Source: Lytechinus pictus
Taxonomy: Eukaryota
Length of the DNA: 64,000 nucleotides
Reading direction: 5' to 3'
Assembly (NCBI RefSeq): GCF_037042905.1
Contig: NC_087245.1
Location: forward strand, 7,318,001 to 7,382,000
Shown: positions 359-58,602 of the stretch, in pieces
Layout of the letters: each line of letters opens with the position of its first letter
Position numbering within the stretch: position 1 is the stretch's first letter
Position numbers and translations under genes: made by a program
Notes under the pieces: model-generated
What the model was told of the DNA's origin: nothing
Seen by the model: only the letters and a program-made list of their open reading frames with translations
Databases searched by the model: none

Positions 359-601
359 ATGAGGAACTACCAAGCATTTCATTCTGTCCAAGCAACATCT
401 CCAAGTCAGCGGACCCTGGGTCAATGACAAGCACTGTGACGTGGACTTTGCCAGACTTCACTGACAATGTAGGTGTTGTCTTTGTTAAGGATTCACATCA
501 GCCTCCAGATATCTTTTCTATTGGAATGACAAATGTGACCTATACTGCATCTGATGCTGAAGGAAATATGATTGTCTGTGAATTTCAGGTTACAGTTCTA
601 G
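359..601 (+). CDS. HYR exon 1
   Basis: ttag|AT..G|gtgag; DEELPSISFCP...TDNVGVV...CEFQVTVL; 243 nt. Confidence 0.92.
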
Positions 602-24600: not shown

Positions 24601-27600
24601 TCTGGTCACATTGAACTACATTGTATAGGAAGAATTGAACTACATCACATGTACATTTAAACAGTCAGATCATTATTTTTAACAGCCACACCCAACTATT
24701 AAAAAATGAACTTTTTTCATCTTTTTCTTTTATGAAAACGTCATCAGAATTTAAACCTTTAAAAATTAATGACAGTTTTATTAGTAATAATACTAGTAAT
24801 TAATAAAAGATACTTTCATGTTATTTCAATCTTCTATCAATCATTACATTTTTATTTGTTCTTCCTGTAAAGATCTAATTAATTTTTCAGCAATCATTAT
24901 CAACCAGTAGCAAGTATAATTTTAGTTCTAACCTATCAATTACCTCTCTTCTTCCTTTGGGGGGTCAGTTCCTTTATAATGAACAAACTCTCTGATGGAA
25001 GTCAACATGTACTTTCTTTATTAAAATATAGAAAGTGGTCTAGTTATTTGGTGCACACATAGCGCACTTTCCATCTTGATTAGATGCTCAAGGCGCTTCA
25101 GAGCAGAACAACAACAAAAGCTACAGTCAAACATGTATTAGTGGCCACCATTCTTAACAGGTATGTTTTCAGGTTGCCCTAGAAGGTGGTCACTGAAGTA
25201 TTGGTTTTCAAACATCTACCTTATTCAAGAATCAACAAAATGGCTTCATTTTCAGATTTTTAGATTTATTGCAGTAATTGCCAGCTTATGATGGCAGAGT
25301 ATTGACATGTATTCTTTCTCATACTTTTATCACTCAAGACAATGTGAATCCAGTCTTAACTTGCAAATCCGCAATCACCATTGCTACTGACCCCGGTCAA
25401 GCTACTGCTTCCAATATCAGCTCATATAACATGGCTACAGACAATTCAGGGACACCAGTATTGACCTCTAACTTACCCATGGATGAAGCTGGTCTAGGAG
25501 TGACCCCAGTGACCATTACAGCTACAGATGGGTCTTGGAACACAGCTATGTGTCAATTCAACATCACTGTAGTAGGTCAGTATTCAATCAAAATCAACAT
25601 GTTGTGATAACTTGTTAATGGAGGAAAAAAAAAATACACACACACACATATATATTATCATCACATGCATGTGGAAAGGGGCAATATAAATCCGCAGTAT
25701 ACTTGATACAGTGTAAATAGAAGGAACCTAGTCATTGTGAATATTGAAGGAATAGATCTAATTGAAATTTGAAAGGTGAGCCATTATGCCAGCTAATACA
25801 ATGAAATTATATATTTTTCTTATCCAGATAATGAAGGACCGACCTTTACACCATGTCCAGAAGACATGCATCTGAACACAACTAACGTTGCAAGCTGGAC
25901 CATCCCTGTAGCTTCAGATAACACAGGAATCATTGCAAGCTCTGTATTCTCCCATGAACCCGGTGTCTTCCCTGTAGGACCCACCGTTGTCAGTTACAAT
26001 GCCACTGATCAGTTTGGCAACTTTGGCACATGCCAATTCACTGTCACTGTTGATGGTACGTAGTCATCCATCTTTCAAGTCTGGTTTAGTCCACAATTGC
26101 AGGGGTGGGGACACCTTTATCTCATACCCAAAGAATTTGCTGTTCTTATACTTTGCCCTATTCCATGCTGCCTCCTTCAATCCAACCCTCCTACTTTCTT
26201 CCATTTGATTCCATGTCTTTTTCAGTCATTCCCTTTACCCTCTGACCATTCATCTGAAATTCAACCACCTTCCTCCTCAGAACATAATGAACATCATTCC
26301 TCAACACATGTCCGTATGTACTCCATTGAGTCCATTCGCCATTCCCATGTAATCCAACACTTCTTCATTAGGTTCAAAGTCTCCTTCCAGTCAGTTCTGG
26401 CAGAAACAAATTTATTTTGCTTTAACACACAAAAAATGGTAGGGTGGGAATTATCATGAATACATCGATGATCTTAGATGAGTGAGGACTTAGGTACCCT
26501 ACAATCTGTAAAGGGCTTATCACAAAATACAGTGGTATCACATTTTTTGCTCAATTAAAAAAGCAATTATATGATATTTATATTTCCCGAAGTAGTCTCA
26601 TATTGCCAGAGTCTTGACCGGTGCATGTCCATAAATTCATGTGAAAGAAGAATGTTTTATGTTTACCTTAACTCACCTACAGCCTCTGGTAGCCCTGTGG
26701 TATCTGGATGCCCAGCGGACATATCTGTTAACTCATCAGTAGGTACCTTCAGTGCTAATGTGACCTGGGTAGAACCTACTGCTACCGATAGTGATGCGGT
26801 CAACACCACTCAGTCACATTATCCTGGTCAATTGTTCCCTATCGGAGTGACCGAAGTGACCTACATCTTCACAGATACCACTGGCAGGTCTACATCATGT
26901 ATCTTTGATATCACAGTCATATGTGAGTATCTAATAATTACTTTTCTTGCCAGAAGTAAAATGGGTGTGTCAGATTAGTATCTACAAACTTCACATCAAA
27001 TTAACCATCATTTATCATTCATGAAACAGAAACAGATGCATTAAAAATTCAGTTAATATGGCACATAATGATGATATTTAATATTGTTGGTATTAGGGTG
27101 TCATTATTGTGATGATTGTAATAATGGTAATTAAGATGATGATAAAGATTATAGTAATGATATTTATGTTAAGAGCAAATACTTAATTAACAATCACATT
27201 ATTACTTTATTTGTACGTCCAATGTATGTTGTATCTGTATATTAACATGTAGATGGTAATATGTTGTGGTTCCAAATAGGAAAGAGATGCTGTATTGAAT
27301 GCATTTCTTACTAAACAAGGCTTTGTGATATTTCATTTTAGTATTACTAAGTAATCATGATTGCTTTGTATTTAATTCTTCCAGTACAAGGGGACACTGT
27401 GCCACCTGTCTTTGACTTCTGTCCAAGTAACTTCATTGCATACACTGAAGTAGGCAAGGGCTTTACCACTGTCTCTTGGCCTGAACCCATTGCATCTGAT
27501 GCCTCTGGACTACCAGTGACCCTCTCCTCTGACACTGTTAATGGAGATATCTTCCAGGTTTACAACTACACCGTTATCTATACCGCCAAAGATAGCGTCA

Positions 27601-30600
27601 ATAATACTGCCATGTGTGAATTCACCTTTCAAGTCTTAGGTATAGTTTGCTTTCATTTCTTCCCCTTTTTATTTATGAATCCCCATCGATGTTTACTTGT
27701 TGTGTTATACTTTGAATATTATGAGTTAAATTGTCATGGAATGTGCAGTACATTCACCAAAATAGAAGTCCAAGTGTGGCATGAAGACAGACCTTTTATT
27801 AAACATTCTTCCATTTTACCAGAAGGATGGCAGACGGCATACATATTGGGAAACAATTTTTTTGTTTTATCATCTAACAATTGCCAACTGTTCTCTCACT
27901 TTCATCCCTTGTATTCCAGAGGATTTTGCACCAGTTATTGAGAACTGCACTTCAGATATATCACAGGACACTGATGCTGGTGCTGCTAATGCTATGGTCA
28001 CCTGGTTGGTCCCAATAGGCAGCGATGCTAATGGTCCAGTTACCACTACTGCAAACTACTCTCCTGGTGCTATCTTTCCTGTGGGTACAACGGTTGTCAA
28101 TTATGATGTCATTGATGGCACCAATAACACAGCAAACTGCACGTTTAGTGTCACTATTTCAGGTAATAGAAACCTTCTTCAGTATTTTAAAAAGTCCATA
28201 TCTCTGTGATATATGCATGTAAATGTATGGTATTGTTGTTTCTCTTTCCCTCTTTTTAAAGGGGGATGGCTTCACAAGTTAAATGAAACATTTGAGTAAG
28301 TAATGTATACTGAAGTGAATGAAAAGTCCTAACAATGTTTTGTGAAAATTAACTTGTGAAATTCCCATTCTGAATCATGTATGAAATGTGTATATATATA
28401 TCATACAGCTCCTAGCTATAGAGTGAAAGAGATATCTGATAAAGATCAGATTAATCTATATATTCTTATGAAAATTCTTCGGAATTTTATGCCTCTTTGT
28501 TTAACAGACAATGAGATGCCTGCTTTCACGTTCTGCCCATCTGATGTGAATGTCTATGTTCAAGCCAATGAAACCTCTGGCAATGTGACCTGGCCGTTAC
28601 CCGTTGCTGTAGACAATGTGGGTGTAGTCAGTCTCGTAACTACTTCCTCGCAGGGTACTTATAATCTTGGACCTGTCAAGGTAGTGTACAATGCCCAAGA
28701 TGCTGCTGGCAATCAGGAGATCTGCTCGTTTACCGTTCAAGTCATTCGTAAGTATACATGTACTTGCATTTGCCTTTTCAAACAATTTTTGTTGCCATAC
28801 ATGTAATGGTATTTCTAAAATAATTTGGTCCCGTCATAGCTCTATTAATAAACAACAAGATACTGGGCATTGTAGATTCCCATTCTTCATCAATTAACCA
28901 TTAAACTTTTGTAATTTTGGCAAAAATGCTGTGATTAAGTTTGTACAAGGTGACTTGATGATAAGATTCAATTTTTCAATTCAATTTCAATTAATTTACC
29001 ATCTTTAAAAATCAGCATACATGTACATAAAAATATGACATGTAATAAACTTACATGTAGTACATACTATTTAAAAATGAACGATTACCCTTAATAAGCA
29101 AAGATATTTCAATTTTCATTTTCCAACCCAGATAAACCTCTTTCTGTCTGAAATGTAATGAGAAGTCGTTGTTCTTGCTCAGATAATCTCTGTGATATCT
29201 AGGCCCTGTAACACAAACAGATACAATTGATTGTTCAATTAGGCATAACTGTAAGTCTATGGATGACCATGTACAAAGAAGATATAATCAGTTGTAAACT
29301 TAATCATATCTCTCTATGTTACTCCCCTATTACAGAGGATCAAATACCAACCATAGAAGGCTGCCCCGATGACATCACCCAGTCTACTGACCCTGGTGTC
29401 AACAATGCCAGTGTGTCCTGGACTGAGCCTACTGTGACAGATGACAGAGACAATGCAACCATCTCCACAGACAACTACTCTCCTGGAGACACATTCCCTA
29501 TTGGGTCAACAGCAGTCATGTATACTGCCACTGATATCTCAGGCAATACTGTTACTTGCTCATTCACTGTCTTAATAAGGGGTAAGTAAGAGCATGAACA
29601 GATTCTCAACAAGAATCCTCAATCTCCCCGACCCACCAACTTCTCTCTTTGCAATACTTCACGACTTAATGAATAAAAATGAAAGCTTACTGCTTGCTTA
29701 AGATTCATTCTGTATAAGTCAGTGTAATAGACCCGTGGACAGAGATTTAGAATTACCATTGTGCTGCACTCTACCCAGCTGAGGTGAATGGATACCTGCT
29801 AGATTTGGTTTCTTGAATGTACTGAATGCTTAAAACAGAAGTTAGGGCTTGAGCTGGAATATACTGCGCCTCTGAATAGGCTGGGGTGAACATTCGAGCA
29901 TTTTTAATCTCAAGGCCTAGGAACTGACCGGCGTTTTGGCATGCCTACAATGCGTAATACACAAACATCGCATTCACACTTTGTGCTGAACGTCATGATA
30001 ATCGAGTTTACCCATTTCGTTATCTGGAAGTTTACTAATCTTTCTGAAATTTTCATTGCTGTTTCTAACATTATTTTATTGTGTTTCTTATACTTTATTT
30101 TCATCGCACTAAGGTCAGTGCTGTCATCATTAAGCGGATGTGACGTCACTCCGCCCCCGCCTATAGGCAACTAGATATAATATATCTAGTTCTGTGTTGA
30201 TGTTATATCTTATCAATTTAGGGGATGGTTTACACAAAGTATAGTGTGACTACATGTCGCAGTTGAATTCCCAGTCTCGTGCAATATATCACATATCACT
30301 TCATTGCTCAGATCATTATACTCTGGGCATGCGAATTACTGCGTATTAATCAATGAGATTACGTATTAGATATAATATGCATGTTGGCACTAAAGCATAA
30401 CTTTTAGCTACACTTAATTCTTTGTGAAACATCCTCAGATCCCAGTCTAACAAATAGTTACGATTGACCCAATCAATCACATCTATATGGAAATCCATCA
30501 GTGTCATAATTTTTTCTACCGGATATTTGCAAATTGTCCTTTGTAAATAAAGGAGAACACACCATGTTGTCAAGAAATTGATGAACTTATGAATATACAT

Positions 30601-33600: not shown

Positions 33601-36600
33601 GTTGAGTCAGAAGTTGTATATAGTGCTGCTATGTTCTATTGGTATAAATCGCGAAATGGAAATCTTGTGTGAAAATAGATTATTTATTGTACAGCACTCA
33701 ATACATCAGAATAGATCAGAATGTTTCCAAGTGCTTTCTAGATATATCATTACCCCTGTCATTGGATTAATGCCACAGTATTCTAGCACAAGTATTATCT
33801 CTCACTATCATTATTATGATTATTATTATTTTGTTGATCAGATGAAGAGAATCCAGTGTTATCAAACTGCCCATCAGACATCACAGTGTACGTATCCAAC
33901 TCATCAGAATCAGCCATTGTCACTTGGACTGAGCCATCAGTAACTGACAACTCTGGAGAGAGTATCGTACCAAGCTCAAATGCTGCATCTGGAGCCAGCT
34001 TTGGACAGGGTAGCACCATAGTCCTCTATTCCGCCACCGATTCTTCTCAGAATCTCGATACCTGCAGCTTTGTTGTTATTGTACAAGTTGCTACCAGTAA
34101 GTATTGCTCTTATTATCGTCTTTGTTGAAAAATAATCTCAAATATTGTGGCATGGCATAAATATCCACAAATCCCATATCATTCTGTATTGACCCTGCTC
34201 AAAATAAATTTTTCAATATCCTAAAAAGGAATGTGATGTATTTTCCTGACTTAAATGATCACATAGACTTCAAGAAATGTTGTCTAATTTAAATGATTAT
34301 AGTATCCAGTATCTTCATAGACCAAGATAGTAGTGTATTGAAATGACAAGCTTGCAATTTTGTACGCATGATATTATTAAGATTCAGGCTGTTTCCTATA
34401 GATTGATATAATGTCATTTTGTTCATATCCAGGCCTTAGTCAATTTGAAGCTAACTTGAAATTGAACAGGATCCAAGATCAGGTTGGTCCCTATACATCT
34501 GGTGATGTGACTTCTAGTGCATCCAAGTTACGAGATGATGTAAGTAGCTATTGTCAAATCAAAGTTGTGGTTTCCCAAGTACATTGTCATTAAAAATATA
34601 ATTTTCGTCACTTTGCTTTGATAGTTACAAAGCAATTCTAAAAACAGGGTAAGGGATAGAAAATGAGCTAGCTCTTTGGGGATGAGGCATCTGCATTTTA
34701 ATTTGAAAAAAAAAAATCTATTTATAGAGGGTAGTTCATTCCTAGGAAGGCAGAAGGGTGTTGTGATAGTCACAATTTTTTTCTGAACAGTGTGACAATT
34801 TTTTTTTTCAAGGCAATTTTTTTATAAGATTTTTATAATTTATAGATCTCAAGGCATGACTTGAACTGTAGGCCTATAGTTTTGAAAAGGAGTTAGATAC
34901 TGAATGTTGCTTTGCCTTTGATTGTACTCTCATGAATGGATCTTATATTGAAATTAAAACACGCTACGGTATACACTTCATCTCAAATTGTTCTGCACAG
35001 CTTGAAAACCTGTTCCGTCAGAGCTCAGTCAGCACTTACTTTGCTGGGGTTCAGATCACGTCATCTACCGTAGATCCGGCCGACAATCTCTCTGCAGACT
35101 ATTTACTCACTCTCTACTTCAGAGACAATGTAGCTGTCACTGAAACAGCAATAGAGGGTGCTTTTGATGCAGCTCTTGTCAATAACAAGTTTAACGTCAA
35201 CAATGGAGTGGCTCAAGCTAATGACTTCTACATCTGTAAGTAACCTTGGCAAATAAAAATCAATCTATACTCAAATCTACACCCTCCTTGTGCATCACAT
35301 TAAGGTTATGCTTTTAAAGTACTTGAGAAGTGAATAGAATTGAATGTTTATTTTTTTTTTATCTCCTTTTTTTGTTTAATATGTGGAACATTTGAGATAC
35401 TGATAAGCATTCAATAAATCAGAAATAATGTATATTGATGATTGTGGTGATGATGACACACTGATCAGTTTGTCACAGACTAGACTTAATTTTTCTGTTT
35501 CCTAGTTATGTATATTTGATATCTCATTTTGAGCTCTCAATATCCAATATTTATTCATTTGATTTAATAGCCCCAGGCGCATGCTCAAGCACACCATGCC
35601 AGAACTTCGCTACTTGTATAGATTTGAACAGGGTGGACTTTGAATGCACATGCACCTCTGCCTACACCGGTACACTCTGTACAGATGGTAAGAAATATCA
35701 CCCCCATTATTGTCTACTTCAGTTCAATGGAATGCATTCTCTATATAGACAGATTTAACATGAGAAGCATTAAACAAACGGGTTTACACCAGATATCAGT
35801 TCACAGACCTTTTTTTGTTGGGGGGGGAGGTATATTTGTGATTATCAAATCAACAACTTTTCTGCAGTTTCTTGAAATGGTGTCAAATCTAAATATATCT
35901 ACTCAGATCGAACCATTCATCCTTATGTGCTTATGTCTTTGTGCTTATGTTGAATAACCGTTGGCTGACTACTCTCATTAACATGCCTTACCTCAAACAG
36001 ATGTTAATGAATGTTTAAACAATCCTTGTGGAGTGAACCAAGACTGTAATAACAACATCGGAAGCTACACCTGTCAATGTTCAGAAGGATTTACCATTGT
36101 CGGTGATCAATGTATTAAAGGTAGGATCACTTAATCATTCATTTTCTTGATGTTAGTGTGTCCCTGTGAGTATTTCATTAAATTGTATTTAAAGTTGCAT
36201 CTTATGAATGAAGACTTTTACCTGACTATAAAGAAGAGTAAATAGGGATACCTATACTTTCCTTATTGTATTTACAGTGACCTCAATTGAATTAGTAGAA
36301 TTCATGCTTCATGTGAGTTGATTGGAGAGTGTATACCTGCACATTGTTCATTTCAATTATCCATTGAAGATGATTTTTCATGAGATGACTGATGACAATC
36401 CTCGAGAGACATACTCTCCCACACCTTGGACATATATGGACTTGGAGAGAAGCATCCTTATTTTAGACTGAGAATTTCCATAATTTTACTTCTAGAATAA
36501 AACCCTAGAGTAGAGATGTGCAACTTTGGCAATCAGAAGTGATTTCAAGTCAAATGTATAGATAATAATAAGTAATAGATAATAAAACCTGTTTCATATT

Positions 36601-39600
36601 CATTCAATGTGTATTGTAGTGGCGACATCGCTTGGTGGTGCATTTGATATTGAGATGATTGATGGAGCTCCAGCTGTCTTCAGTTCAGACCTTAATGATG
36701 AGAATTCTGCAGCTTATACAAACCTTGAATCTAAGGTCACTTCTGCTGTAAGCATGATTTTGGAATTCCTTTTCAAATCTTGGCATACCTTGTGAACAAG
36801 AAAAATGAAGCATTGTAGATACTTTAATTTGACTAAAAAATGTTTTATCAAGTTGTTATGATACTTTCCTAAAATTTAATTCATAAGCAATAATAATCTC
36901 TTTTAGAATACCTTTGGAATAAAGTTTAACATGTATGATTTTTTTTATTGAGAGGTTTTCTTTGTACATGCCGCACACAGAAATAGAAAAAAAGTTAAAC
37001 TGGGAGTCTTTTTCTGAGATATCATGGTCCATCCATGAGCTACGGGTTTAGCATTGATCAGTAAAGGTTTTCATCAAGTTGCTTAAGAAATAAAAGGGGG
37101 AGGGGTCTTCATAATTACACAACCAATTTATTCTTTTGCTTTTGTGCCTGTTTTTCTTGGCATTTACTTTTGATATAGTTTATTTTTATTCCAACTGGCC
37201 CTGACTAACTGTAGCTTTGATGCGGAGTGTGATGCTTGATATTAAAGACTTTTTCATCTTCTGTTTAACAGCTTGATGGCATCTACAACGGTACCACTGG
37301 ATACCTTGGGTCAGGGGTCATTTCGTTTGCTAGCGGTAGTATCAAAGTGGAATATGAACTTCTCTTTGAGAGTGAAGTGGATGCCACAAGCATAGATAGC
37401 ATGCTCAATAGAAGTATCAGTCAATCGACCGGTGAGATTGGTCAGACTAATATTATCGTCGAACCTTCTACAGTTGTAACAGTACAAGGTAAGGAATGAT
37501 TGGTCATATCATTTACCATGATTCTGCTCACTTCTTTATGATTAGAAAGATAGGGAATAATTACATATTGATTATCTTAATCATAATAATTTTTTGAAAG
37601 TTTGCCTCGTTAACTTGAATATGAGGAGCGTTGTGTCATTAACTTGAATATGATGAGTGTTGTTTCTGACTATCATTTTAAGCATGAATAAAATTTTGGT
37701 TTTTATTTGACTACAATACATGCATGCATGTTAGTGCATAGTATCCTCATGTTTTTTTATAAATCGTGAATTTATTGTTGTGATGTGTTCTTTTATATTC
37801 ACTATTTTACTTGGAATGTTTTTTTTTTTTTTATTGATATGATGCATATAGACAGCTTTCTACATGTATATTCATGTATAGTTATAGCATTTTTTTTCAT
37901 ATATATTGTGATTGCTAAGAATAAAATATGAAGGGAGGCAAAATGGTCACTCAAACAGATTTATCACAATGCTATCCTAGCAGCCAGTAATGGGATTAAT
38001 TTAATGATTTTTTTTCTCTCCTAGAACTCTGCCCAGCGGATTACTGTGGGAATAATGGTGTTTGTGTCATCACAGTTGGACTTCAGAGCCTTTGCATGTA
38101 AGTGTATCCCTATCAGAATGAAGATAGATTGGGGGTGTACATGAAAATAAGTTTTCCATATCAGATTTTTTTATTTTTTTGGGGGGAGGGACATCATATG
38201 CATTAAATCTGCAGTGGTTTCTCTCTTTTTTTTAATGGTATTAGACATGAAATTCTATTTCTATAAGAAATCATGGATTTTCATGCAGATGTTCAAAATA
38301 AAATATGCTTCAATTAACATTGAGAAGTTGAATTTATGTGCTTAGTTGTCATGTTTGCTTCATCCATCTTCCAGCTGTGACACCAACTTTGAAGGTGACC
38401 AATGTGAGATCAACCTGAACAGTATACCAACTTACATCATTGTCCTGATCGTAGCAGCAGGTCTTCTTGTTGTCATCGTCATTGTCCTCCTTGCATTGTG
38501 CTTCTTCATCATGAGGACGTCCAATGACAAGGAGTCTGGCAACTTCATCTACAGCGTAGAAGGAGGACATGAGAACTTCACGTTTGGTCACACCCGTGAT
38601 GACATGGTCCATATGCGCGGTCCGGGAAGATCAAATGTTAATCATGCCAACGACAGTGGCAGGTCAGATATGAGGATGTCGAGGGAGAATGAAAGGCATC
38701 AAGAAAGAGACTACGACCATCAGCATCATCGACGCAAGAAGAAATATGGAGAGCGCTTCTACCATAATACTCCACCACCATCGTATAACGGTACTGGAGT
38801 GGCAATGGGTAGAGATGCATTAGAACAACCTTCTTCACGATCTCGTCATCAACCTCGACCACTCATCCAGGATATAGGTTCTGCTCCAAGGGTAAGATCA
38901 ACCTTCTTTTTAATTCATATGACTCACCCGAGTCACCTGTCAAATAGTCAGAGCCACATGAATCCTGCACGCATCTTTTCATTGCTTATTCTCTCATTTC
39001 ATCATAGACAAGCCAATAGGGCAACGGGAACGCTGCATAATGCCTTTATCATAGACAAACCAATAGGGCAACAAGAATGCTGCATAATGCCTTTTTCATA
39101 GACAAACCAATAGGGCAACGGGAATGCTGCATAGTGCCTTTATCATAGACAAGCCAATGGGGCAACGAGAATGCTGCATAATGCCTTTATCATAGACAAG
39201 CCAATGGGGCAACAGGAATGCTGCATAATGCCTTTATCATAGACAAGCCAATGGGGCAACAAGAATGCTGCATAATGCCTTTATCATGGTCAGTCTTTAT
39301 CATAGACAAACGAATGGGGCAACGGGAATGCTGCATAATGTCTTTATCATAATCAAGCCAATGGGGCAACAGGATTGCTGCATAGTGCCTTTATCATAGA
39401 CAAGCCAATAGGGCAACAGGAATGCTGCATAATGCCTTTATCATAGACAAGCCAATGGGGCATCGGTAATGCTGCTTAGTGCCTTTATCATAGACAAACC
39501 AAAAGGGCAACAGGAATGCTGCATAAGGCCTTTATCATAGACAAGCCAATGGGGCAACAAGAATGCTGCATAATGCCTTTATCATGGTCAGTCTTTATCA

Positions 39601-42600
39601 TAGACAAACGAATGGGGCAACGGGAATGCTGCATAATGCCTTTATCATGGTCAGTCTTTATCATAGACAAACGAATGGGGCAACGGGAATGCTGCATAAT
39701 GTCTTTATCATAATCAAGCCAATGGGGCAACAGGATTGCTGCATAGTGCCTTTATCATAGACAAGCCAATAGGGCAACAGGAATGCTGCATAATGCCTTT
39801 ATCATAGACAAGCCAATGGGGCAACGGTAATGCTGCTTAGTGCCTTTATCATAGACAAACCAATAGGGCAACAGGAATGCTGCATAAGGCCTTTATCATA
39901 GACAAGCCAATGGGGCAACGAGAATGCTGCATAATGCCTTTATCATAGACAAGCCAATGGGGCAACAGGAATGCTGCATAATGCCTTTATCATAGACAAG
40001 CCAATGGGGCAACAAGAATGCTGCATAATGCCTTTATCATGGTCAGTCTTTATCATAGACAAATGAATGGGGCAACGGGAATGCTGCATAATGCCTTTAT
40101 CATAATTAAGCCAATGGGGCAACAGGAATGCTGCATAATGCCTTTATCATGGTCAGTCTTTATCATAGACAAACGAATGGGGCAACGGGAATGCTGCATA
40201 ATGTCTTTATCATAATCAAGCCAATGGGGCAACGGTAATGCTGCTTAGTGCCTTTATCATAGACAAGCCAATAGGGCAACAGGAATGCTGCATAATGCCT
40301 TTATCATAGACAAGCCAATAGGGCAATGGAAATGCTGCATAATGCCTTTATCATAGACAAGCCAATAGGGCAATGGAAATGCTGCATAATGCCTTTATCA
40401 TGGTCAGTCTTTATCATAGACAAACGAATGGGGCAACGGGAATGCTGCATAATGTCTTTATCATAATCAAGCCAATGGGGCAACAGGATTGCTGCATAGT
40501 GCCTTTATCATAGACAAGCCAATAGGGCAACAGGAATGCTGCATAATGCCTTTATCATAGACAAGCCAATGGGGCAACGGTAATGCTGCTTAGTGCCTTT
40601 ATCATAGACAAACCAATAGGGCAACAGGAATGCTGCATAAGGCCTTTATCATAGACAAGCCAATGGGGCAACGAGAATGCTGCATAATGCCTTTATCATA
40701 GACAAGCCAATGGGGCAACAGGAATGCTGCATAATGCCTTTATCATAGACAAGCCAATGGGGCAACAAGAATGCTGCATAATGCCTTTATCATGGTCAGT
40801 CTTTATCATAGACAAATGAATGGGGCAACGGGAATGCTGCATAATGCCTTTATCATAATTAAGCCAATGGGGCAACAGGAATGCTGCATAATGCCTTTAT
40901 CATGGTCAATCTTTATCATAGACAAATGAATGGGGCAACGGGAATGCTGCATAATGCCTTTATCATAATCAAGCCAATGGGGCAACAGGAATGCTGCATA
41001 ATGCCTTTATCATGGTCAATCTTTATCATAGACAAAAGAATGGGGCAACAGGAATGCTGCATAATGCCTTTTTAATGGTCAATCTTTGTCATAGACAAAC
41101 GAATGGGGCACCCGCCAATAGGAATGCTGCATAATGCCTTGATCATAGCCAAGCCAATGGGGCTATGGGAATGCTGCATAATGCCTTTATCATAGACAAG
41201 CCAATGGGGCTATGGGAATGCTGCATAATGCCTTTATCATAGACAAGCCAATGGGGCAACAGGAATGCTGCATAATGCCTTTATAGTGGGATTCCTGCAA
41301 AATGTCTTCCTGCAGCCCTGTCTGTCAACAATGACAATGACAATACAGTTGTGTGATTAATGCAGGAAAGATGCAGTTCTGATTTGTAATTAAGGTATCT
41401 AAATTTTGTGCCATATGGTAATAAAAGTTTTTCTGCGTTATATATTGAAATATTGAGATATTAAGATTGCTAATACTAAGATCAAGGTCTCATGAGATTT
41501 ACTATATCATGATTTCTTTGTATACTGTTGGTAGGCAGTTGAATTGTGTAGGATCTCCCAATGCTCACAGAGTTGTGATTCTCTCATCTTTGACCCATAA
41601 ACTTACAAAGGACAATAACACAAAGTCGTTTATTAATAGAGGTACAACTAACAGATTAAAGAAAGCAGTAGTTCTCTCTCTGTGAACAAGAGGCCTAACT
41701 TCAATTTTTAATTTAGATTTCATACACAACCTTCAAGTCAATATTTCTGCTTTATATTAAAACCCTTAAGGGTGAATTATAGCTTTCAATTATCATGTTA
41801 ATATTTTTCTTCAGGATGATGATGTGAATATTCATCAACTCTATGCAGACAGACGAGGCAATGATCCTCAACTTATTGTAAGTTAGCCTCTACATGTATA
41901 TATAAATTCATGTTCTTTTATTAACCCTTTGATATGAGTTTACTGGTGTATAACTAATGAAATAGAGGTTACAACTTATGTGTATAAATGTACATTGATA
42001 ATATATCTTGTTTGCCAGAGGCAATCTTGTGATTGTTTAAGGCCATTTATTGCCTAACCTTGTTTATTTTTTCATAACTTTTTCTAATACTCCTGTTGTA
42101 TTTATTCATGGACTTTATCTTTCTTCCATTTCTAATTCCATGATTATCTAATAATATTCTATGAAGACTGCAAAATCATAGCACTAAGAAAATGTAGGAA
42201 GTCAATTTGGGTCAGTTTGTTTCATGAATCAATGTGATTAATCAATTTAACACAAACTGAAACTAATCTAGCATGAGTCTTTGGTCTTGCAGCTTCCGTT
42301 ATAGAATTTCTATTTTGTTACTCTTTATTATACATATTTTCTTATAATTGCTATTCTGTTATAATTAACTCTCCATATCTATATCCTTATGTCATTTTCT
42401 ATTCTGTTAATCTTCACTGTGCATATTTTGTTTTATATAGTGTAATTTTGTATAATGTAATGTAATATTTGTTTCTAACATTTTCATCTCATAGCCTGAG
42501 GACCATGAAAGTAGCAATGATACAAGTCAGAATTCTAACCCAGCTGATGTTGTCAGGGACTCTATGGTAATACTACCATGCTCATAAACTAATGCCATAC

Positions 42601-45335
42601 TCAGTAGTCTAGAGATAAAGCATCTTTGTCTCTTGATTTTTCAGAAATCTGTTGCTATGGTATTGGTACAATACAGAAAAAACCCAGATCACATTACATT
42701 TACATGTACTCATTCAAAAAGGGATGGGCTATAGATATGACAAACTATTCCACTCAATCTAAAATATGGATTGTCCATGTATGTCCTTTCACTTTCCTTA
42801 CAACATAATGGACACGTGTATATACATCTTTGCTCCTTGTTTCTTTTATACAATGTGATAATGTACAGTATTTAATTCTGGTTTTACTGTGTCTTAATGA
42901 AGTCATGAAACATAAATTTATTTCTTGCAAGTCAATGTGTGTCTGTTGGGCTTTCCATGTCTTTGCATAATGAATTCATGTGAGATTGAAGTGTTTCATA
43001 TTGGGAATATTGATAAAGTGATAATGAGTATGTCAACTAACATAGTAGTTCTGTTATGTGTTATGTAGAGTGATGCACCCAACACAACATCAAACCAGCA
43101 GCCATATATAGCCACTGGACAGGAGGCAGCTACGGTAATTAATTTGATTTACCACATCATTCCTTGAGAAAGAAATTCACTTTCCAACAGTTGGTCTAAT
43201 TTAATGATTATGTTAACCACTTTATCAAACATCCATTGGTCTAATACCCGTTTGGTCAACTACCCCTTACTTGATCCAACCATCAATTGGTCTAATACCC
43301 ATTTGGTCTACTACCCTTCACTTGGTCCAACCAACATTGGTCTAATACCCATTTGGTCTACTACGTTTTACTTGATCCAACCATCTATTGGTCTTATACC
43401 CATTTGGTCTACTACCCTTCACTTGATCCAACCATCATTGGTCTAATACCCATTTGGTCTACTACCCTTTACTTGATCCAACCATCATTGGTCTTATACC
43501 CATTTGGTCTACTACCCTTTACTTGGTCCAACCATCATTGGTCTAATACCCATTTGGTCTACTACCCTTCACTTGGTCCAACCAACATTGGTCTAATACC
43601 CATTTGGTCTACTACGTTTTACTTGATCCAACCATCAATTGGTCTTATACCCATTTGGTCTACTACCCTTCACTTGATCCAACCATCATTGGTCTAATAC
43701 CCGTTTGGTCAACTACCCCTTACTTGATCCAACCATCATTGGTCTAATACCCATTTGGTCTACTACCCTTTACTTGATCCAACCATCAATTGGTCTTATA
43801 CCCATTTGGTCTTCTACCCTTCACTTGGTCCAACCATCATTGGTCTAATACCCATTTGGTCTACTACCCTTTTCTTGATCCAACCATCATTGGTCTAATA
43901 CCCATTTGGTCTACTACGTTTTACTTGATCCAACCATCAATTGGTCTTATACCCATTTGGTCTACTACCCTTCACTTGATCCAACCATCATTGGTCTAAT
44001 ACCCATTTGGTCTACTACCCTTCACTTGATCCAACCATCATTGGTCTAATACCCATTTGGTCTACTACCCTTTACTTGATCCAACCATCAATTGGTCTAA
44101 TACCCATTTGGTCTACTACCCTTCACTTGGCCAACCAACATTGGTCTAATACCCATTTGGTCTACTACGTTTTACTTGATCCAACCATCATTGGTCTTAT
44201 ACCCATTTGGTCTACTTCCCTTCACTTGATCCAACCATCATTGGTCTAATACCCATTTGGTCTACTACCCTTTACTTGATCCAACCATCAATTGGTCTTA
44301 TACCCATTTGGTCTTCTACCCTTCACTTGGTCCAACCATCATTGGTCTTATACCCATTTGGTCTACTACCCTTTTCTTGATCCAACCATCATTGGTCTAA
44401 TACCAATTTGGTCTACTTCCCTTTACTTGATCCGACCATCAATTGGACTGGTACCCATTTGGTCTACTACCCTTCACTTGGTCCAACCATCAATTGGTCT
44501 GATACCAATTTGGTTTACTACCTTTTACTTGACCCATCAATTGGTCTAATACCAATTTGGTCTACTACCTTTTACTTGATCCAACCGTCAATTGGTCTAA
44601 TTCTCATGTGGGTGATGTGTTTAATATCTATGGTTTAATTGTCAATGTATCTGGCTAATGATTTCAATCATGCACTCAAAAGTTATTCAAAAATTAATTT
44701 TGTTATGAAATGAGTCAAAAAAGATATTATAATGATACAATTACTTTCAATTGATTCTTCTGTCATGATTATTAAAGAAGGAAGATGAAACATTGCACTT
44801 TTATGGACTAAAATGCTTGTCAAGTCAGGAGGTAAACTTAGGATTAATGTATCTGAATATACCACATATTGTGATGGTTAGAGTTGTGATAGGGTTTTGT
44901 TATCAATACTTTGAGGATGAAGATTATGAGTTTTTGTTTGGCTGAATACGCTTCCTTAGGAATGATTGCAGCATGATCTAATGTCACATTATCACAAGAT
45001 GGTGAATAAAGACCAAATAGGTTTAAGAAAATGGCTAAAAAGACTAATGGTAATGCTTAATACAGAATAGCCTACAGGATAACAAGTAATAAAATTATGA
45101 TGAGGATTATATTTTGTTTGCTTAGGAATATTTATTTTATGAACAATAATCAAGAGTATTTAAAACATGCATATGAATATTGTTGAAGTAAAGAGTATAG
45201 AATTTTTAGTATGCAACCTTTGGAATGTTAATTATCTCATGTTCATTTATTGACATTTTATTTTGATTATATTATTTTTTGCCAACTTAGGTCTATGGTC
45301 ATCGTAATGTGGAAAATGAACCTGGATATTTCTGA
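359..45335 (+). CDS. 5'-truncated multi-exon gene: hyalin-like/mucin-like type I membrane protein (43xHYR, SEA-like, EGF, cbEGF, SEA, EGF, TM, cytoplasmic tail); 55 coding exons, ~4070 aa in window
   Basis: All exons bounded by AG/GT with matching phases; summed exon length 12212 nt plus 1 upstream phase base = 4071 codons ending in TGA at 45333-45335; HYR consensus DxxPPxxxCP...VxW..P.A.DN.G...F.G.T.V.Y.A.D..GN...C.F.V.V. Confidence 0.9.
1211..1450 (+). CDS. HYR exon 2
   Basis: ccag|AT..AG|gtaag; 240 nt, phase 1-1. Confidence 0.92.
1670..1819. mobile_element. Short MITE, PIF/Harbinger-like (related copies at ~2388-2526, ~5630-5820, ~48221-48402)
   Basis: Degenerate terminal inverted motifs ctggg..gtttcat / atgaaacaccctcctg recur in several introns. 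Confidence 0.5.
2113..2361 (+). CDS. HYR exon 3
   Basis: gcag|AT..G|gtagg; 249 nt. Confidence 0.92.
3054..3293 (+). CDS. HYR exon 4
   Basis: acag|AT..CAG|gtatg; 240 nt. Confidence 0.92.
3681..3923 (+). CDS. HYR exon 5
   Basis: gcag|AT..G|gtgag; 243 nt. Confidence 0.92.
4284..4526 (+). CDS. HYR exon 6
   Basis: acag|AT..G|gtaag; 243 nt. Confidence 0.92.
5205..5447 (+). CDS. HYR exon 7
   Basis: ccag|AT..G|gtagg; 243 nt. Confidence 0.92.
6445..6690 (+). CDS. HYR exon 8 (correct frame missing from ORF track)
   Basis: acag|AT..G|gtaaa; DDEPPVLQGCDFGDIIQEADAA...CSFNISVL; 246 nt. Confidence 0.92.
6977..7216 (+). CDS. HYR exon 9
   Basis: gcag|AT..G|gtaag; 240 nt. Confidence 0.92.
7545..7668. repeat. 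(CTT/CCT)n polypyrimidine microsatellite
   Basis: Visible directly. Confidence 0.85.
7734..7979 (+). CDS. HYR exon 10
   Basis: gcag|AT..AG|gtaag; 246 nt. Confidence 0.92.
8254..8496 (+). CDS. HYR exon 11
   Basis: tcag|AT..AAG|gtatt; 243 nt. Confidence 0.92.
8783..9257 (+). mobile_element. Non-autonomous Helentron/HINE-like element
   Basis: 5' ttttgtctcgcctgcat with subterminal inverted copy atgcaggcgag(gcgag)ac at 9218-9235; ends cttgtt; internal aggtca repeats. Confidence 0.6.
9328..9570 (+). CDS. HYR exon 12
   Basis: tcag|AC..GAG|gtaat; 243 nt. Confidence 0.92.
10597..10839 (+). CDS. HYR exon 13
   Basis: ccag|AT..G|gtaag; 243 nt. Confidence 0.92.
11682..12816 (+). mobile_element. Helitron/Helentron-like element with internal tandem repeats
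   Basis: GTCT/GTCC microrepeat near the 5' end; repeated aaatgcttcttc and gaggttcaccaaacttctac units; 3' hairpin cacatca-t-tgatgtg followed by CTAGTT. Confidence 0.6.
12924..13163 (+). CDS. HYR exon 14
   Basis: gtag|AT..CAG|gtgag; 240 nt. Confidence 0.92.
13499..13744 (+). CDS. HYR exon 15
   Basis: acag|AC..G|gtgag; 246 nt. Confidence 0.92.
13955..14200 (+). CDS. HYR exon 16
   Basis: acag|AT..AAG|gtagg; 246 nt. Confidence 0.92.
14817..15056 (+). CDS. HYR exon 17
   Basis: acag|AC..AAG|gtttg; 240 nt. Confidence 0.9.
15603..15845 (+). CDS. HYR exon 18
   Basis: gcag|AT..G|gtaag; 243 nt. Confidence 0.92.
16308..16550 (+). CDS. HYR exon 19
   Basis: acag|AT..CAG|gtaac; 243 nt. Confidence 0.92.
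16897..17139 (+). CDS. HYR exon 20
   Basis: gcag|AT..AG|gtgag; 243 nt. Confidence 0.92.
17532..17774 (+). CDS. HYR exon 21
   Basis: ccag|AT..G|gtaag; 243 nt. Confidence 0.92.
18283..18522 (+). CDS. HYR exon 22
   Basis: ctag|AT..AG|gtgag; 240 nt. Confidence 0.92.
18976..19218 (+). CDS. HYR exon 23
   Basis: atag|AT..G|gtgag; 243 nt. Confidence 0.92.
19816..20061 (+). CDS. HYR exon 24
   Basis: tcag|AT..G|gtgag; 246 nt. Confidence 0.92.
20439..20684 (+). CDS. HYR exon 25
   Basis: acag|AC..AG|gtaac; 246 nt. Confidence 0.92.
21216..21458 (+). CDS. HYR exon 26
   Basis: ttag|AT..AAG|gtgag; 243 nt. Confidence 0.92.
22492..22737 (+). CDS. HYR exon 27
   Basis: acag|AT..G|gtagg; 246 nt. Confidence 0.92.
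22864..23586 (+). repeat. 360-bp tandem duplication in intron 27
   Basis: aagcaaatgtttagtgctataaagcaa at 22864 and 23224; both copies end ttttcattttctctttgca. Confidence 0.92.
23587..23829 (+). CDS. HYR exon 28
   Basis: gcag|AT..AG|gtcag; 243 nt. Confidence 0.92.
24332..24574 (+). CDS. HYR exon 29
   Basis: acag|AT..G|gtaag; 243 nt. Confidence 0.92.
25339..25575 (+). CDS. HYR exon 30 (weak AAG acceptor)
   Basis: caag|AC..AG|gtcag; 237 nt. Confidence 0.85.
25828..26055 (+). CDS. HYR exon 31 (shortened)
   Basis: ccag|AT..G|gtacg; 228 nt. Confidence 0.9.
26066..26400 (-). mobile_element. Degenerate 3' fragment of an RTE-clade LINE
   Basis: Minus-strand frameshifted translation YGHVLR...VLRRKVVEFQMNGQRVKG...KKTW...ESRRVGLK...AWNRAK resembles the RTE C-terminal W.GH..R / GRP...W / A.DR motif series. 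Confidence 0.55.
26683..26922 (+). CDS. HYR exon 32
   Basis: acag|CC..AT|gtgag; 240 nt. Confidence 0.9.
27385..27639 (+). CDS. HYR exon 33
   Basis: ccag|TA..AG|gtata; 255 nt (an alternative in-frame AAG acceptor lies 6 nt downstream). Confidence 0.87.
27920..28162 (+). CDS. HYR exon 34
   Basis: ccag|AG..CAG|gtaat; 243 nt. Confidence 0.92.
28508..28747 (+). CDS. HYR exon 35
   Basis: acag|AC..C|gtaag; 240 nt. Confidence 0.92.
29336..29581 (+). CDS. HYR exon 36
   Basis: acag|AG..G|gtaag; 246 nt. Confidence 0.92.
29720..29885 (+). mobile_element. Possible SINE core fragment
   Basis: gctgcactctacccagctgaggtgaatggatacc resembles metazoan SINE core boxes; degenerate. Confidence 0.3.
30758..30997 (+). 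CDS. HYR exon 37
   Basis: atag|AT..AG|gtaag; 240 nt. Confidence 0.92.
31236..31478 (+). CDS. HYR exon 38
   Basis: tcag|AG..G|gtagg; 243 nt. Confidence 0.92.
31640..31882 (+). CDS. HYR exon 39 (absent from ORF track)
   Basis: ctag|AC..CAG|gtagg; DQEDPVLLNCP...VTWTPPTATDNSG...CSFIITVS; 243 nt. Confidence 0.92.
32203..32442 (+). CDS. HYR exon 40
   Basis: acag|AG..G|gtaag; 240 nt. Confidence 0.92.
32661..32903 (+). CDS. HYR exon 41
   Basis: ttag|AC..CAG|gttag; 243 nt. Confidence 0.92.
33318..33560 (+). CDS. HYR exon 42
   Basis: gtag|TT..G|gtatg; 243 nt. Confidence 0.92.
33842..34096 (+). CDS. HYR exon 43 (last HYR)
   Basis: tcag|AT..CCA|gtaag; 255 nt. Confidence 0.9.
34433..34539 (+). CDS. 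SEA-like domain 1, N-terminal exon
   Basis: ccag|GC..GAT|gtaag; phase 1-0; LSQFEANLKLNRI...ASKLRDD. Confidence 0.8.
35001..35235 (+). CDS. SEA-like domain 1, C-terminal exon
   Basis: acag|CTT..T|gtaag; phase 0-1; LENLFRQSSVSTYFAGVQITS...YLLTLYF. Confidence 0.82.
35571..35687 (+). CDS. EGF-like exon
   Basis: CSSTPCQNFATCIDLNRVDFECTCTSAYTGTLC; six Cys; phase 1-1. Confidence 0.92.
36001..36120 (+). CDS. Calcium-binding EGF exon (not in ORF track)
   Basis: DVNECLNNPCGVNQDCNNNIGSYTCQCSEGFTIVGDQC; DxNE and CxNxxGSYxC motifs; phase 1-1. Confidence 0.92.
36620..36747 (+). CDS. SEA domain 2, N-terminal exon
   Basis: FSSDLNDENSAAYTNLESKV is a typical SEA helix-1 motif; phase 1-0. Confidence 0.88.
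37272..37488 (+). CDS. SEA domain 2, C-terminal exon with FASGSIKV motif (not in ORF track)
   Basis: LDGIYNGTTGYLGSGVISFASGSIKVEYELLF; phase 0-1. Confidence 0.88.
38025..38097 (+). CDS. Juxtamembrane EGF, Cys1-4 exon
   Basis: ctag|AA..AT|gtaag; ELCPADYCGNNGVCVITVGLQSLC; phase 1-2. Confidence 0.88.
38375..38891 (+). CDS. EGF Cys5-6, transmembrane helix and proximal cytoplasmic tail
   Basis: ccag|C TGT..AGG|gtaag; CDTNFEGDQC; TM IIVLIVAAGLLVVIVIVLLALCFFIM; PPPSY. Confidence 0.9.
39001..41283. repeat. Intronic minisatellite, 47-bp unit (63-bp variants), ~45 copies
   Basis: Unit atcatagacaagccaatggggcaacaggaatgctgcataatgccttt; optional 16-bp insert atcatggtcagtcttt. Confidence 0.97.
41815..41877 (+). 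CDS. Cytoplasmic tail microexon (DDDVNIHQLYADRRGNDPQLI)
   Basis: tcag|GAT..ATT|gtaagt; 63 nt, phase 0-0, open frame. Confidence 0.72.
42495..42566 (+). CDS. Cytoplasmic tail microexon (PEDHESSNDTSQNSNPADVVRDSM)
   Basis: atag|CCT..ATG|gtaat; 72 nt, phase 0-0. Confidence 0.7.
43069..43134 (+). CDS. Cytoplasmic tail microexon (SDAPNTTSNQQPYIATGQEAAT)
   Basis: gtag|AGT..ACG|gtaat; 66 nt, phase 0-0. Confidence 0.72.
43232..44600. repeat. Intronic minisatellite, 50/51-bp unit, ~27 copies
   Basis: Unit ttggtctaatacccatttggtctactaccctttacttgatccaaccatca. Confidence 0.97.
45291..45335 (+). CDS. Last coding exon (VYGHRNVENEPGYF*)
   Basis: Long T-rich tract then ttag|GTC; TGA at 45333; a donor gtaagt follows at 45349. 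Confidence 0.68.
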   Translation, partial: VYGHRNVENEPGYF

Positions 45336-46173: not shown

Positions 46174-46300
46174 TAATATTGACTGGCTCTTCTTTCGGGA
46201 AACATCAAATATATTGCCCTTAATAGAACCATTAAAGACTCGTGTCAATATGATTTGCGGGCAACATGTTTGATGTACCCCTCAAGGCCAGTCAATATTA
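46174..46300. repeat. Small inverted repeat / MITE
   Basis: taatattgactggc...catcaaatatattgccc versus gggcaacatgtttgatg...gccagtcaatatta. Confidence 0.7.

Positions 46301-58546: not shown

Positions 58547-58602
<56 letters not shown>

What the first reader, a model, noticed from the sequence alone, without database searches (positions are those of the whole stretch)
359..45335. Giant membrane-tethered HYR rod with a mucin-type SEA/EGF/TM base
Seen: at least 43 tandem HYR domains followed by SEA-like, EGF, cbEGF, SEA, EGF, TM and a cytoplasmic tail, with an intact spliced frame. Established: sea urchin hyalin is a secreted hyaline-layer protein, and vertebrate membrane mucins MUC3/12/17 end in EGF-SEA-EGF-TM but use PTS repeats as the stalk. 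Inference: this is a mucin-equivalent whose stalk is a folded Ig/FN3-like rod rich in N-x-S/T sequons, likely more than 100 nm long. It may anchor the hyaline/apical ECM or act as an adhesion or gamete-recognition molecule (the S. purpuratus egg bindin receptor EBR1 also uses hyalin-like repeats).
Basis: partly seen in the sequence, partly recalled or inferred. Interest (0 to 1): 0.75.

Follow-up and report, generated by a model that had tools for sequence, protein, structure and literature searches.

The report
Giant echinoderm cell-surface rod protein
This is a real, expressed sea urchin gene for a huge membrane-anchored protein, a chain of dozens of small folded domains on a mucin-type base, kept in sea urchins, sea stars and crinoids but unstudied, whose inner tail ends like the vertebrate junction receptor Heart of Glass.

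Summary
Observation confirmed. 55 canonical exons splice to one open frame of 4,070 aa: 43 HYR domains (Pfam 43 of 43), SEA, EGF, calcium-binding EGF, SEA, EGF, TM and tail; the 5' end lies off-window. One RNA-like contig joins HYR23 to the TM exon at the predicted offsets, and stranded raw reads cross the HYR43-SEA joint. The gene matches Lytechinus pictus 'hyalin-like'. Its S. purpuratus orthologue (LOC588928, uncharacterised) has about 85-97 HYR, and all 43 window repeats match it one-to-one in order. Sea stars and a crinoid carry the same base under 41-53 HYR, so this is an old echinoderm family. A 7-HYR/SEA/TM urchin protein (Ebr1_5) is already in print. The membrane-proximal SEA keeps a G-S-[I/V] cleavage-type loop in 13 of 13 family members. 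It is not a mucin by definition (no PTS domain) but probably works like one: a sheddable stalk of roughly 0.3 µm. New lead: the EGF-cbEGF-(~110 aa)-EGF-TM order and the C-terminal Tyr-Phe match vertebrate HEG1, whose Tyr-Phe binds KRIT1. Binding is untested. New variant of a known kind; moderate interest.

The parts
359..34096 (+). Array of 43 one-exon HYR domains (228-255 nt each, all phase 1-1); continues upstream of the window
   Evidence: one-to-one collinear with HYR 43-85 of S. purpuratus P0141; exons 23-43 lie in the stretch laid with RNA
27385..27639 (+). HYR33 exon with the RNA-supported acceptor
   Evidence: contig piece starts at 27385, offset 6885 as predicted
34433..34539 (+). SEA1, first exon
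   Evidence: GT..AG joints 34096>34433 and 34539>35001 in all four runs
35001..35235 (+). SEA1, second exon; no G-S cleavage loop
   Evidence: Pfam SEA E 2.4e-5, below cutoff; orthologue model matches MUC16 SEA 1ivz Z 12.3; alignment
35571..35687 (+). EGF domain 1 (39 aa)
   Evidence: Pfam EGF above cutoff; joint 35235>35571
36001..36120 (+). Calcium-binding EGF domain (40 aa)
   Evidence: Pfam EGF_CA above cutoff
36620..36747 (+). SEA2, first exon
   Evidence: Pfam SEA weak; RNA joints
37272..37488 (+). SEA2, second exon
   Evidence: orthologue model matches MUC16 SEA5 Z 12.5 and TMPRSS6 Z 13.7; RNA joints
37335..37349 (+). GSIKV: candidate autoproteolysis site in the hairpin between SEA2 strands 2 and 3
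   Evidence: G-S-[I/V] in 13 of 13 family members; hairpin position in the model; mucin motif G/S[V/I]VV from PMC13643018
38025..38097 (+). EGF domain 3, first exon (phase 1-2)
   Evidence: joint 38097>38375 in 51 raw reads
38375..38891 (+). End of EGF3, TM helix and first part of the cytoplasmic tail
38436..38510 (+). Single transmembrane helix
   Evidence: only hydropathy peak above 1.9 in the whole frame, maximum 3.68
38775..38786 (+). PPxY motif in the tail, shared with the S. purpuratus orthologue only
41815..41877 (+). Tail exon 2
   Evidence: aligns with the orthologue; outside the stretch laid with RNA
42495..42566 (+). Tail exon 3
   Evidence: its counterpart is absent from S. purpuratus isoforms X15 and X16
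43069..43134 (+). Tail exon 4 with the family motif PYIATGQEA (43102-43128)
   Evidence: motif P[YF][IVM][AV][TS]G in 13 of 34 echinoderm HYR proteins examined
45291..45335 (+). Last coding exon, ending Tyr-Phe-stop (45327-45335)
   Evidence: last 30 residues identical in S. purpuratus
45336..47000 (+). Probable 3' UTR of about 1.5-1.65 kb, AATAAA at 46938 and 46985

Best explanation
A type I membrane glycoprotein of an old echinoderm family that works like a SEA-type membrane mucin, with a folded stalk. Shown: one spliced transcript encodes the HYR array, SEA-EGF-cbEGF-SEA-EGF, one TM helix and a tail; each HYR is predicted as a small two-cysteine Ig-like beta-sandwich; the array is strongly acidic and N-glycosylation-site rich. 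Inferred from the orthologue: a signal peptide and about 85-97 repeats in all. Inferred from geometry (3.3-4 nm per repeat, my estimate): an extended rod of roughly 0.3-0.4 µm, perhaps stiffened by seawater Ca2+ bound to the Asp residues at the repeat junctions. Inferred from SEA biology: SEA2 cuts itself at G/S during folding, the halves stay together, and shear or pulling releases the rod. The protein would thus be a cell-surface spacer or tether for the outer matrix that can be shed without tearing the membrane, held inside by tail motifs (PYIATG, terminal Tyr-Phe) that bind a scaffold.
For: Gene model and single TM. RNA contig and joints. HYR fold pLDDT 97, best matches Ig/PKD/SraP domains at Z about 8. 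373 D+E against 35 K+R and 96 sequons. Asp at 35 of 42 repeat junctions, two more invariant Asp per repeat. Both SEA folds. G-S-[I/V] in SEA2 of 13 of 13 members and absent from SEA1. SEA cleavage, force-induced unfolding and shedding as reviewed in PMC13643018 (passages). Same base conserved in urchins, sea stars and a crinoid.
Against: No localisation, tissue, cleavage or binding data. The SEA2 motif is GSIKV, not the mucin G-S-[V/I]-V-V. No PTS domain (best 100-aa window 43% S+T+P). Strict one-to-one retention of 43 divergent repeats between two urchin genera suggests the repeats may have individual partners rather than act as an inert spacer. Ca2+ binding and rod length are estimates; no HYR relative was found in the PDB by sequence.
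Confidence: 0.55

Rival explanations
1. An invertebrate HEG1 (Heart of Glass)-like receptor. The cbEGF-SEA-EGF-TM base and the C-terminal Tyr-Phe anchor the KRIT1/CCM complex through the KRIT1 FERM F1-F3 pocket at epithelial junctions, and the HYR rod replaces HEG1's Ser/Thr-rich stalk. This does not exclude the best explanation.
For: HEG1 order and sizes from PMC5374711 (figure legend): EGF 39 aa, calcium-binding EGF 40 aa, 108-aa 'unknown region', EGF3, TM, tail. Window: 39, 40, 115 (SEA2), EGF3, TM. HEG1's terminal Tyr-Phe is the dominant KRIT1 determinant (PMC3461514 passages). Terminal YF in 7 and YY in 2 of the 13 proteins with this base, against 0 YF in the 21 other echinoderm HYR proteins; YF occurs in urchin, sea star and crinoid lineages. 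The last 30 residues are identical between the two urchins while HYRs are 53-88% identical.
Against: No sequence-level match to HEG1 was obtained: the PDB search with a sea star tail did not return a HEG1 peptide and the Atlas gave no HEG1 cluster. The crinoid protein with the identical architecture (P0014) and two Patiria models end otherwise. The urchin has Gly, not Asp, before YF and lacks HEG1's preceding arginines. EGF exons of 39-40 aa are generic. HEG1 lacks a mucin-type cleavage site. The seven YF rows are only about three independent lineages. I could not check for an urchin KRIT1.
Confidence: 0.2
2. A gamete- or pathogen-facing recognition molecule (egg-surface or epithelial receptor) in which particular HYR repeats bind sperm bindin or microbes.
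For: Sp-Ebr1_5 (7 HYR, SEA, TM; 1,243 aa) ranks fifth for positive selection, confined to three HYR domains (PMC5521101 passages and one supplement row). Its length fits the last 8 HYR plus base of the orthologue (1,236 aa), so it may be a fragment of this gene. The N-terminal repeats of the S. purpuratus models include recent 99-100% duplicates, i.e. a fast-changing tip.
Against: Identity of Ebr1_5 with LOC588928 is not shown; I had no SPU sequence. The Ebr1 name reflects HYR similarity; real EBR1 has CUB/TSP repeats and no TM (PMC8403831). No egg-specific expression data.
Confidence: 0.13
3. A tension-bearing link, analogous to tip-link protocadherin-15/cadherin-23: a Ca2+-stiffened rod of beta-sandwich repeats on a membrane-adjacent SEA domain that tethers cilia or microvilli to each other or to the hyaline layer/cuticle and reports force.
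For: The top Foldseek matches of the HYR-HYR-SEA model are PCDH15 EC10-MAD12 and CDH23 EC25-MAD28. Conserved junction Asp residues. Repeat number and order kept exactly over the 43 proximal repeats.
Against: TM-scores are about 0.2 and reflect generic sandwich-plus-SEA order. A self-cleaving SEA2 would be a weak point in a load-bearing link. No localisation data.
Confidence: 0.1
4. Annotation artefact: a secreted hyalin-like gene and a separate small SEA/EGF/TM gene merged by the reader.
For: In run X15 only a 3.9-kb contig from about HYR42 to the 3' end is seen, and in X5 depth rises from 62 to 227 near HYR42. The current S. purpuratus annotation is split into N- and C-terminal models.
Against: One 12,813-nt contig in X1 runs from HYR23 to the TM exon with all 8 listed offsets within 2 nt of prediction. 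16 stranded raw reads from 14 starts cross HYR43>SEA1. Older S. purpuratus models and sea star and crinoid models are continuous. Even the short contigs keep two HYR on the SEA base.
Confidence: 0.02

Closest known systems
S. purpuratus LOC588928 (RefSeq, uncharacterized; P0133, P0013, P0140, P0141) and L. pictus 'hyalin-like' XP_054749141.1 (P0001)
   Same: P0001 is a damaged model of this very gene. LOC588928 is the orthologue: 43 of 43 repeats collinear, base 70% identical, same C-terminus.
   Different: Automatic models only; no paper in the library names LOC588928 or the L. pictus accession. P0001 lacks cbEGF, SEA2, an intact TM and the tail end.
Sp-Ebr1_5 (SPU_006534), PMC5521101
   Same: HYR repeats + SEA + TM in a sea urchin; described in one sentence as a putative egg receptor under positive selection.
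   Different: Seven HYR and one SEA reported, 1,243 aa. Either a fragment of the orthologue or a paralogue; not resolved here.
SEA-type membrane mucins MUC3A/3B/12/17, MUC1, MUC16 (PMC13643018)
   Same: Very long stalk, juxtamembrane SEA with G-S-[I/V] hairpin, flanking EGFs, single TM, tail.
   Different: Stalk is folded HYR repeats, one per exon, with N-glycan sites instead of a single-exon O-glycosylated PTS domain; two SEA domains; no class I PDZ end.
HEG1 / Heart of Glass (PMC5374711, PMC3461514, PMC4733052)
   Same: Module order EGF, cbEGF, ~110-aa region, EGF, TM; tail ending in Tyr-Phe.
   Different: HEG1 has a Ser/Thr-rich stalk, no reported cleavage site, a ~110-aa tail with NPSF and a Rasip1 site; this protein has HYR repeats, an extra SEA, a ~205-aa tail with PYIATG. 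Homology beyond shared modules is not shown.
Hyalin and EBR1
   Same: Tandem HYR repeats.
   Different: Hyalin is an extraembryonic matrix glycoprotein (PMC9382459 passage); EBR1 has CUB/TSP repeats and no TM (PMC8403831 passage). Neither passage mentions a SEA/EGF/TM base.
Protocadherin-15 and cadherin-23
   Same: Long rod of beta-sandwich repeats on a membrane-adjacent SEA-type domain (top fold matches), so 'folded rod on a SEA base' is a known design.
   Different: Cadherin repeats, no EGFs, 12-14% identity, low TM-scores.

Membership tests
SEA-type membrane mucins | Large PTS-rich O-glycosylated mucin domain | tested here: not met
   stalk is 43 HYR domains; best 100-aa window 43% S+T+P; unseen 5' half is also HYR in the orthologue
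SEA-type membrane mucins | Juxtamembrane SEA domain | tested here: met
   (orthologue); window exons
SEA-type membrane mucins | Cleavage motif G/S[V/I]VV | tested here: inconclusive
   GSIKV at the right hairpin; G-S-[I/V] in 13 of 13, fourth position varies; cleavage itself untested
SEA-type membrane mucins | Single TM and cytoplasmic tail | tested here: met
SEA-type membrane mucins (MUC3/12/17 subgroup) | Class I PDZ-binding C-terminus | tested here: not met
   ends in P-G-Y-F, no S/T at -2; feature from PMC13643018; class I consensus recalled
HEG1 | EGF, cbEGF, ~110-aa region, EGF, TM order | tested here: met
   against the legend in PMC5374711
HEG1 | C-terminal Tyr-Phe | tested here: met
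   PMC3461514
HEG1 | Ser/Thr-rich O-glycosylated stalk | tested here: not met
HEG1 | Sequence orthology or synteny with vertebrate HEG1 | tested here: inconclusive
   no HEG1 sequence was available to me; searches returned none; the only neighbour in the window has no Pfam hit
HEG1 | Binds KRIT1 FERM domain | not testable with these tools
Hyalin | Tandem HYR repeats | tested here: met
Hyalin | Secreted matrix protein without TM | tested here: not met
   TM exon on the same contig as the HYR exons
EBR1 | CUB and TSP1 repeats, no TM | tested here: not met
   no room for them in the window frame or in the orthologue maps; feature from PMC8403831
Echinoderm HYR-SEA-EGF-cbEGF-SEA-EGF-TM family (unnamed) | HYR array + two-SEA base + PYIATG-type tail motif | tested here: met
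   groups with the sea star genes at 85/87 support

The most novel reading that the evidence does not exclude
Echinoderms have a HEG1-type receptor: a family whose cbEGF-SEA-EGF-TM base and terminal Tyr-Phe recruit the KRIT1/CCM complex, carried on a rod of up to about 90 folded HYR domains. The HEG1-KRIT1 link, known from vertebrate endothelium, would then predate vertebrates and blood vessels, and mucin-like receptors would have swapped between folded and O-glycan stalks on one conserved base.
Probability: 0.2. Interest if true: 0.75.

Novelty: new variant of a known kind. Interest (0 to 1): 0.5.

Why it matters
It defines an unstudied, echinoderm-wide class of 4,000-8,000-aa surface proteins in a genetically tractable urchin, and shows a SEA/EGF mucin-type base carrying a folded stalk of conserved repeat order. 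It gives a candidate membrane anchor for the embryo's outer matrix or the adult surface coat. If the terminal Tyr-Phe binds KRIT1, it supplies an invertebrate receptor for the cerebral cavernous malformation complex and a simple embryo in which to study it. If Ebr1_5 is a fragment of this gene, a published positive-selection signal has been read on a wrong gene model and under a misleading name.

Tried and rejected
Whole-genome search: no genome is held for this window, so the 5' half, copy number and synteny could not be read. Homologue search with the TM+tail exon among 302-2000-aa proteins found nothing (the relatives are longer). The phmmer search with the SEA1 exon gave 11 hits: the L. 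pictus model, one 145-aa SEA fragment (58% identical) and nine hits I set aside as compositional; eight of these were scanned with Pfam and none showed SEA, the ninth (P0002, 5,033 aa) was over the size limit. PDB sequence search with a sea star tail returned two chance hits and no HEG1 peptide; with a HYR exon, nothing below E 0.6. The Atlas gave no usable hit for the EGF-SEA-EGF unit and only leads under 0.9 for TM+tail. The look-up of sequencing runs listed no holder on record as RNA; the RNA evidence rests on the lay, chiefly raw-read run X19. I looked for a signal-peptide first exon in intron 41 to explain a short form and saw no usable donor site. Repeat-by-repeat collinearity with sea star and crinoid proteins is not detectable apart from the last one or two repeats. 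Ebr1_5 = LOC588928 could not be settled. An L. pictus in-situ screen lists one 'hyalin-like' probe that I could not tie to this gene. A search for KRIT1 in echinoderm papers listed none with KRIT1 among the 15 shown. Earlier findings of this scan: none bear on this gene. No complex prediction was sent.

Full report
1. The observation. The + strand carries 43 exons of 228-255 nt between 359 and 34096, each phase 1-1 with AG/GT ends and each encoding one HYR domain. Pfam HYR is met by 43 of 43 at E < 1e-5. The repeats are old, not a recent expansion: mean pairwise identity 36%, range 22-55%. Each has two invariant cysteines, and Pro4, Asp35 and Asp65 are invariant too. Twelve more exons follow: 34433-34539, 35001-35235, 35571-35687, 36001-36120, 36620-36747, 37272-37488, 38025-38097, 38375-38891, 41815-41877, 42495-42566, 43069-43134 and 45291-45335. 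All introns are GT-AG and the joined frame has a single stop, at its end; with the RNA-supported HYR33 acceptor it is 4,070 aa. There is one hydrophobic peak, the TM helix. EGF and EGF_CA pass their Pfam cutoffs; the SEA halves do not on their own, because each SEA is split by an intron. The HYR region has 96 N-x-S/T sequons against 60.8 +/- 6.7 in 1,000 shuffles (none reached 96), and 373 acidic against 35 basic residues.

2. One transcript. Four runs held 0.33-0.34 of the words of 30700-38950; exons alone predict 0.337. I laid 4 of the 21 listed runs on 18960-38950. In X1 one contig of 12,813 nt carries the listed pieces from HYR23 to the TM exon, and all 8 listed offsets agree within 2 nt with a model that includes every exon between them. 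In the stranded raw-read run X19, 16 reads from 14 starts cross HYR43>SEA1 and 23-51 reads cross each of the six later joints shown; the EGF1>cbEGF joint was listed only for X5, and 169 joint rows were not shown. Over most exon bins the first mates lie almost only on the - strand, as expected for a + strand RNA; three bins with repeat pile-ups are mixed. Limits: HYR1-22 and the four tail exons lay outside the stretch; they rest on the orthologue and on contig arithmetic (the X1 contig would start in HYR4 and end about 1.5 kb after the stop). Against a simple picture, X15 shows only a 3,946-nt contig starting 273 nt before HYR43, and in organism B (X5) depth rises from 62 to 227 near HYR42. That may be a short two-HYR isoform or 3' bias; X19 shows about even depth (roughly 30-45 at listed HYR and EGF positions, 57 in the TM exon).

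3. What gene it is. The SEA1 exon found P0001, named 'hyalin-like [Lytechinus pictus]', a damaged model whose HYRs read almost letter for letter as the window's. Searching with it gave S. purpuratus LOC588928. All 43 window repeats find their best match, in order, in repeats 43-85 of the 7,522-aa model P0141 (53-88% identity), which starts with a signal-peptide-like stretch. The current split models add up to about 97 repeats. The window therefore holds about the C-terminal half. The N-terminal S. purpuratus repeats include 99-100% duplicates, and the counterpart of HYR4 has 81-90% copies upstream, a likely reason why the RNA contigs stop in HYR4 (inference).

4. An echinoderm family. I mapped 41 of the proteins returned (those named as echinoderm), plus P0001 and the window frame. 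The same SEA-EGF-cbEGF-SEA-EGF-TM base lies under 52 HYR in Acanthaster (P0015), 40-41 in Patiria (P0033/P0169, P0171), about 45-48 in Asterias (P0023, P0159) and 53 in the crinoid Anneissia (P0014); paralogues have one or more cbEGF-SEA-EGF units (P0024, P0026, P0035, P0066). All 4 members scanned have HYR, SEA, EGF and EGF_CA. A tree of the last unit groups the urchin genes with the sea star genes at 85/87, moderate support with long branches. All are 'uncharacterized' or carry automatic names. A separate echinoderm family of long HYR-EGF-TM proteins with 12-20-residue tails also appears, so giant HYR membrane proteins are common in this phylum.

5. Structure. A window HYR folds with pLDDT 97 as a small beta-sandwich; best matches are Tyro3 Ig, SraP and a PKD domain at Z 8.2, a level that shows only a general Ig-like fold. 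The orthologue's HYR-HYR-SEA-EGF-cbEGF-SEA-EGF model (pLDDT 75, four-sequence alignment) has two beta-alpha-beta-beta-alpha-beta domains matching MUC16 SEA domains (Z 12.3, rmsd 3.0, 116 aligned; Z 12.5, rmsd 2.4, 107 aligned) and TMPRSS6 (Z 13.7). The G-S pair of SEA2 lies in the hairpin between strands 2 and 3. G-S-[I/V] is present in 13 of 13 family members and absent from SEA1. The mucin motif is G/S[V/I]VV, with strain-driven self-cleavage and force-dependent release (PMC13643018, passages). Repeats abut with no linker and Asp stands at 35 of 42 junctions; Ca2+ stiffening is my inference from the likeness to cadherin junctions (recalled). At 3.3-4 nm per repeat (estimate, not measured) the visible part is 140-170 nm and the whole 280-390 nm.

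6. The tail. The last 30 residues are identical in the two urchins, more conserved than any HYR. The motif P[YF][IVM][AV][TS]G occurs in 13 of 34 echinoderm HYR proteins examined, namely those with the SEA base; of these 7 end in YF, 2 in YY and 4 otherwise, while none of the other 21 ends in YF. The 7 are about three independent lineages. Vertebrate HEG1 has the order EGF (39 aa), calcium-binding EGF (40 aa), a 108-aa unknown region, EGF, TM, tail (PMC5374711, legend and passages), and its terminal Tyr1380-Phe1381 is the dominant determinant of KRIT1 binding (PMC3461514, passages; PMC4733052, passages). The match in order, sizes and end is a lead, not a test: I obtained no HEG1 or KRIT1 sequence, searches returned no HEG1 hit, the crinoid P0014 lacks YF, and the urchin lacks the Arg-Asp that precedes YF in HEG1.

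7. What is in print. Ten library searches on HYR/hyalin with SEA, EGF, TM, mucin and echinoderm, on the accessions, and on HEG1/KRIT1 with invertebrates gave one relevant description: Sp-Ebr1_5 (SPU_006534), 1,243 aa, seven HYR, a SEA and a TM, fifth-ranked for positive selection (PMC5521101, passages and one supplement row; supplement file 1 was not searchable). Its size fits the last eight repeats plus base of the orthologue (1,236 aa), but identity is unproven. Other papers seen as passages only: PMC8403831 (EBR1), PMC9382459 (hyalin), PMC10381214 (no HYR mention), PMC12516323 (passages and supplement rows). The library lacks most subscription papers, including the original hyalin, HYR and urchin adhesome papers, and bioRxiv supplements were closed, so a prior description cannot be excluded.

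8. Verdict. The feature is real, expressed and conserved across echinoderm classes. It is not a mucin, hyalin or EBR1 by their defining features, but most likely works like a SEA-type membrane mucin with a folded stalk (0.55). Folded rods on a SEA base are known in vertebrates (PCDH15/CDH23, top fold matches), and the architecture already sits in RefSeq, so it is a new variant of a known kind. The HEG1-like base and terminal Tyr-Phe give one sharp, cheap test (KRIT1 binding) that would raise its interest considerably. Interest 0.5.

Noticed in passing
window 32661-33842 (HYR41-43): Contigs of two runs (X15, organism A; X5, organism B) begin at or near HYR42 with higher depth downstream: a possible short two-HYR isoform from an internal start, or 3' bias. 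No signal-peptide exon was evident in intron 41.
   Followed up: partly
window 55521-58883 (+): A 1,121-codon open frame, very rich in Asp/Glu/Ser/Lys with poly-Asp runs and an internal ~411-nt duplication; no Pfam hit. Probably a large exon of the next gene.
   Followed up: partly
window 39001-41284 and 43219-44601: Two long minisatellites (47/63-nt and 50-nt units) fill introns between the tail exons.
   Followed up: no
window about 29750-30715 and about 25050-25200: Intronic stretches with very high RNA/contig depth, many loose ends and strand-switch joints (30483-30487 to 30669-30671): high-copy interspersed repeats, perhaps a fold-back element.
   Followed up: no
window 11726-12681: Degenerate ~140-170-nt tandem repeat making intron 13 the longest in the HYR array.
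   Followed up: no
P0133, P0139, P0138: S. purpuratus isoform models drop one or two small tail exons, including the PYIATG exon, but keep the Tyr-Phe exon: tail motifs may be switched by splicing.
   Followed up: partly
P0017, P0025, P0031, P0036-P0039, P0041, P0049, P0050, P0055, P0064, P0073-P0075: A second echinoderm family of 3,500-5,000-aa HYR/EGF membrane proteins with very short tails ending in a conserved D-E-x-x-hydrophobic stretch; all automatically named.
   Followed up: no
P0091, P0023: Asterias paralogues carry repeated HYR-HYR-EGF-SEA-like blocks, each with a G-S-V-[V/I]-A motif, upstream of the HYR array: several potential self-cleaving domains in one chain.
   Followed up: no
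P0169, P0171: The two Patiria models end in an unconserved run right after the tail motif, where the urchin gene has its last intron; they may read through a donor site and miss the Tyr-Phe exon (inference).
   Followed up: no
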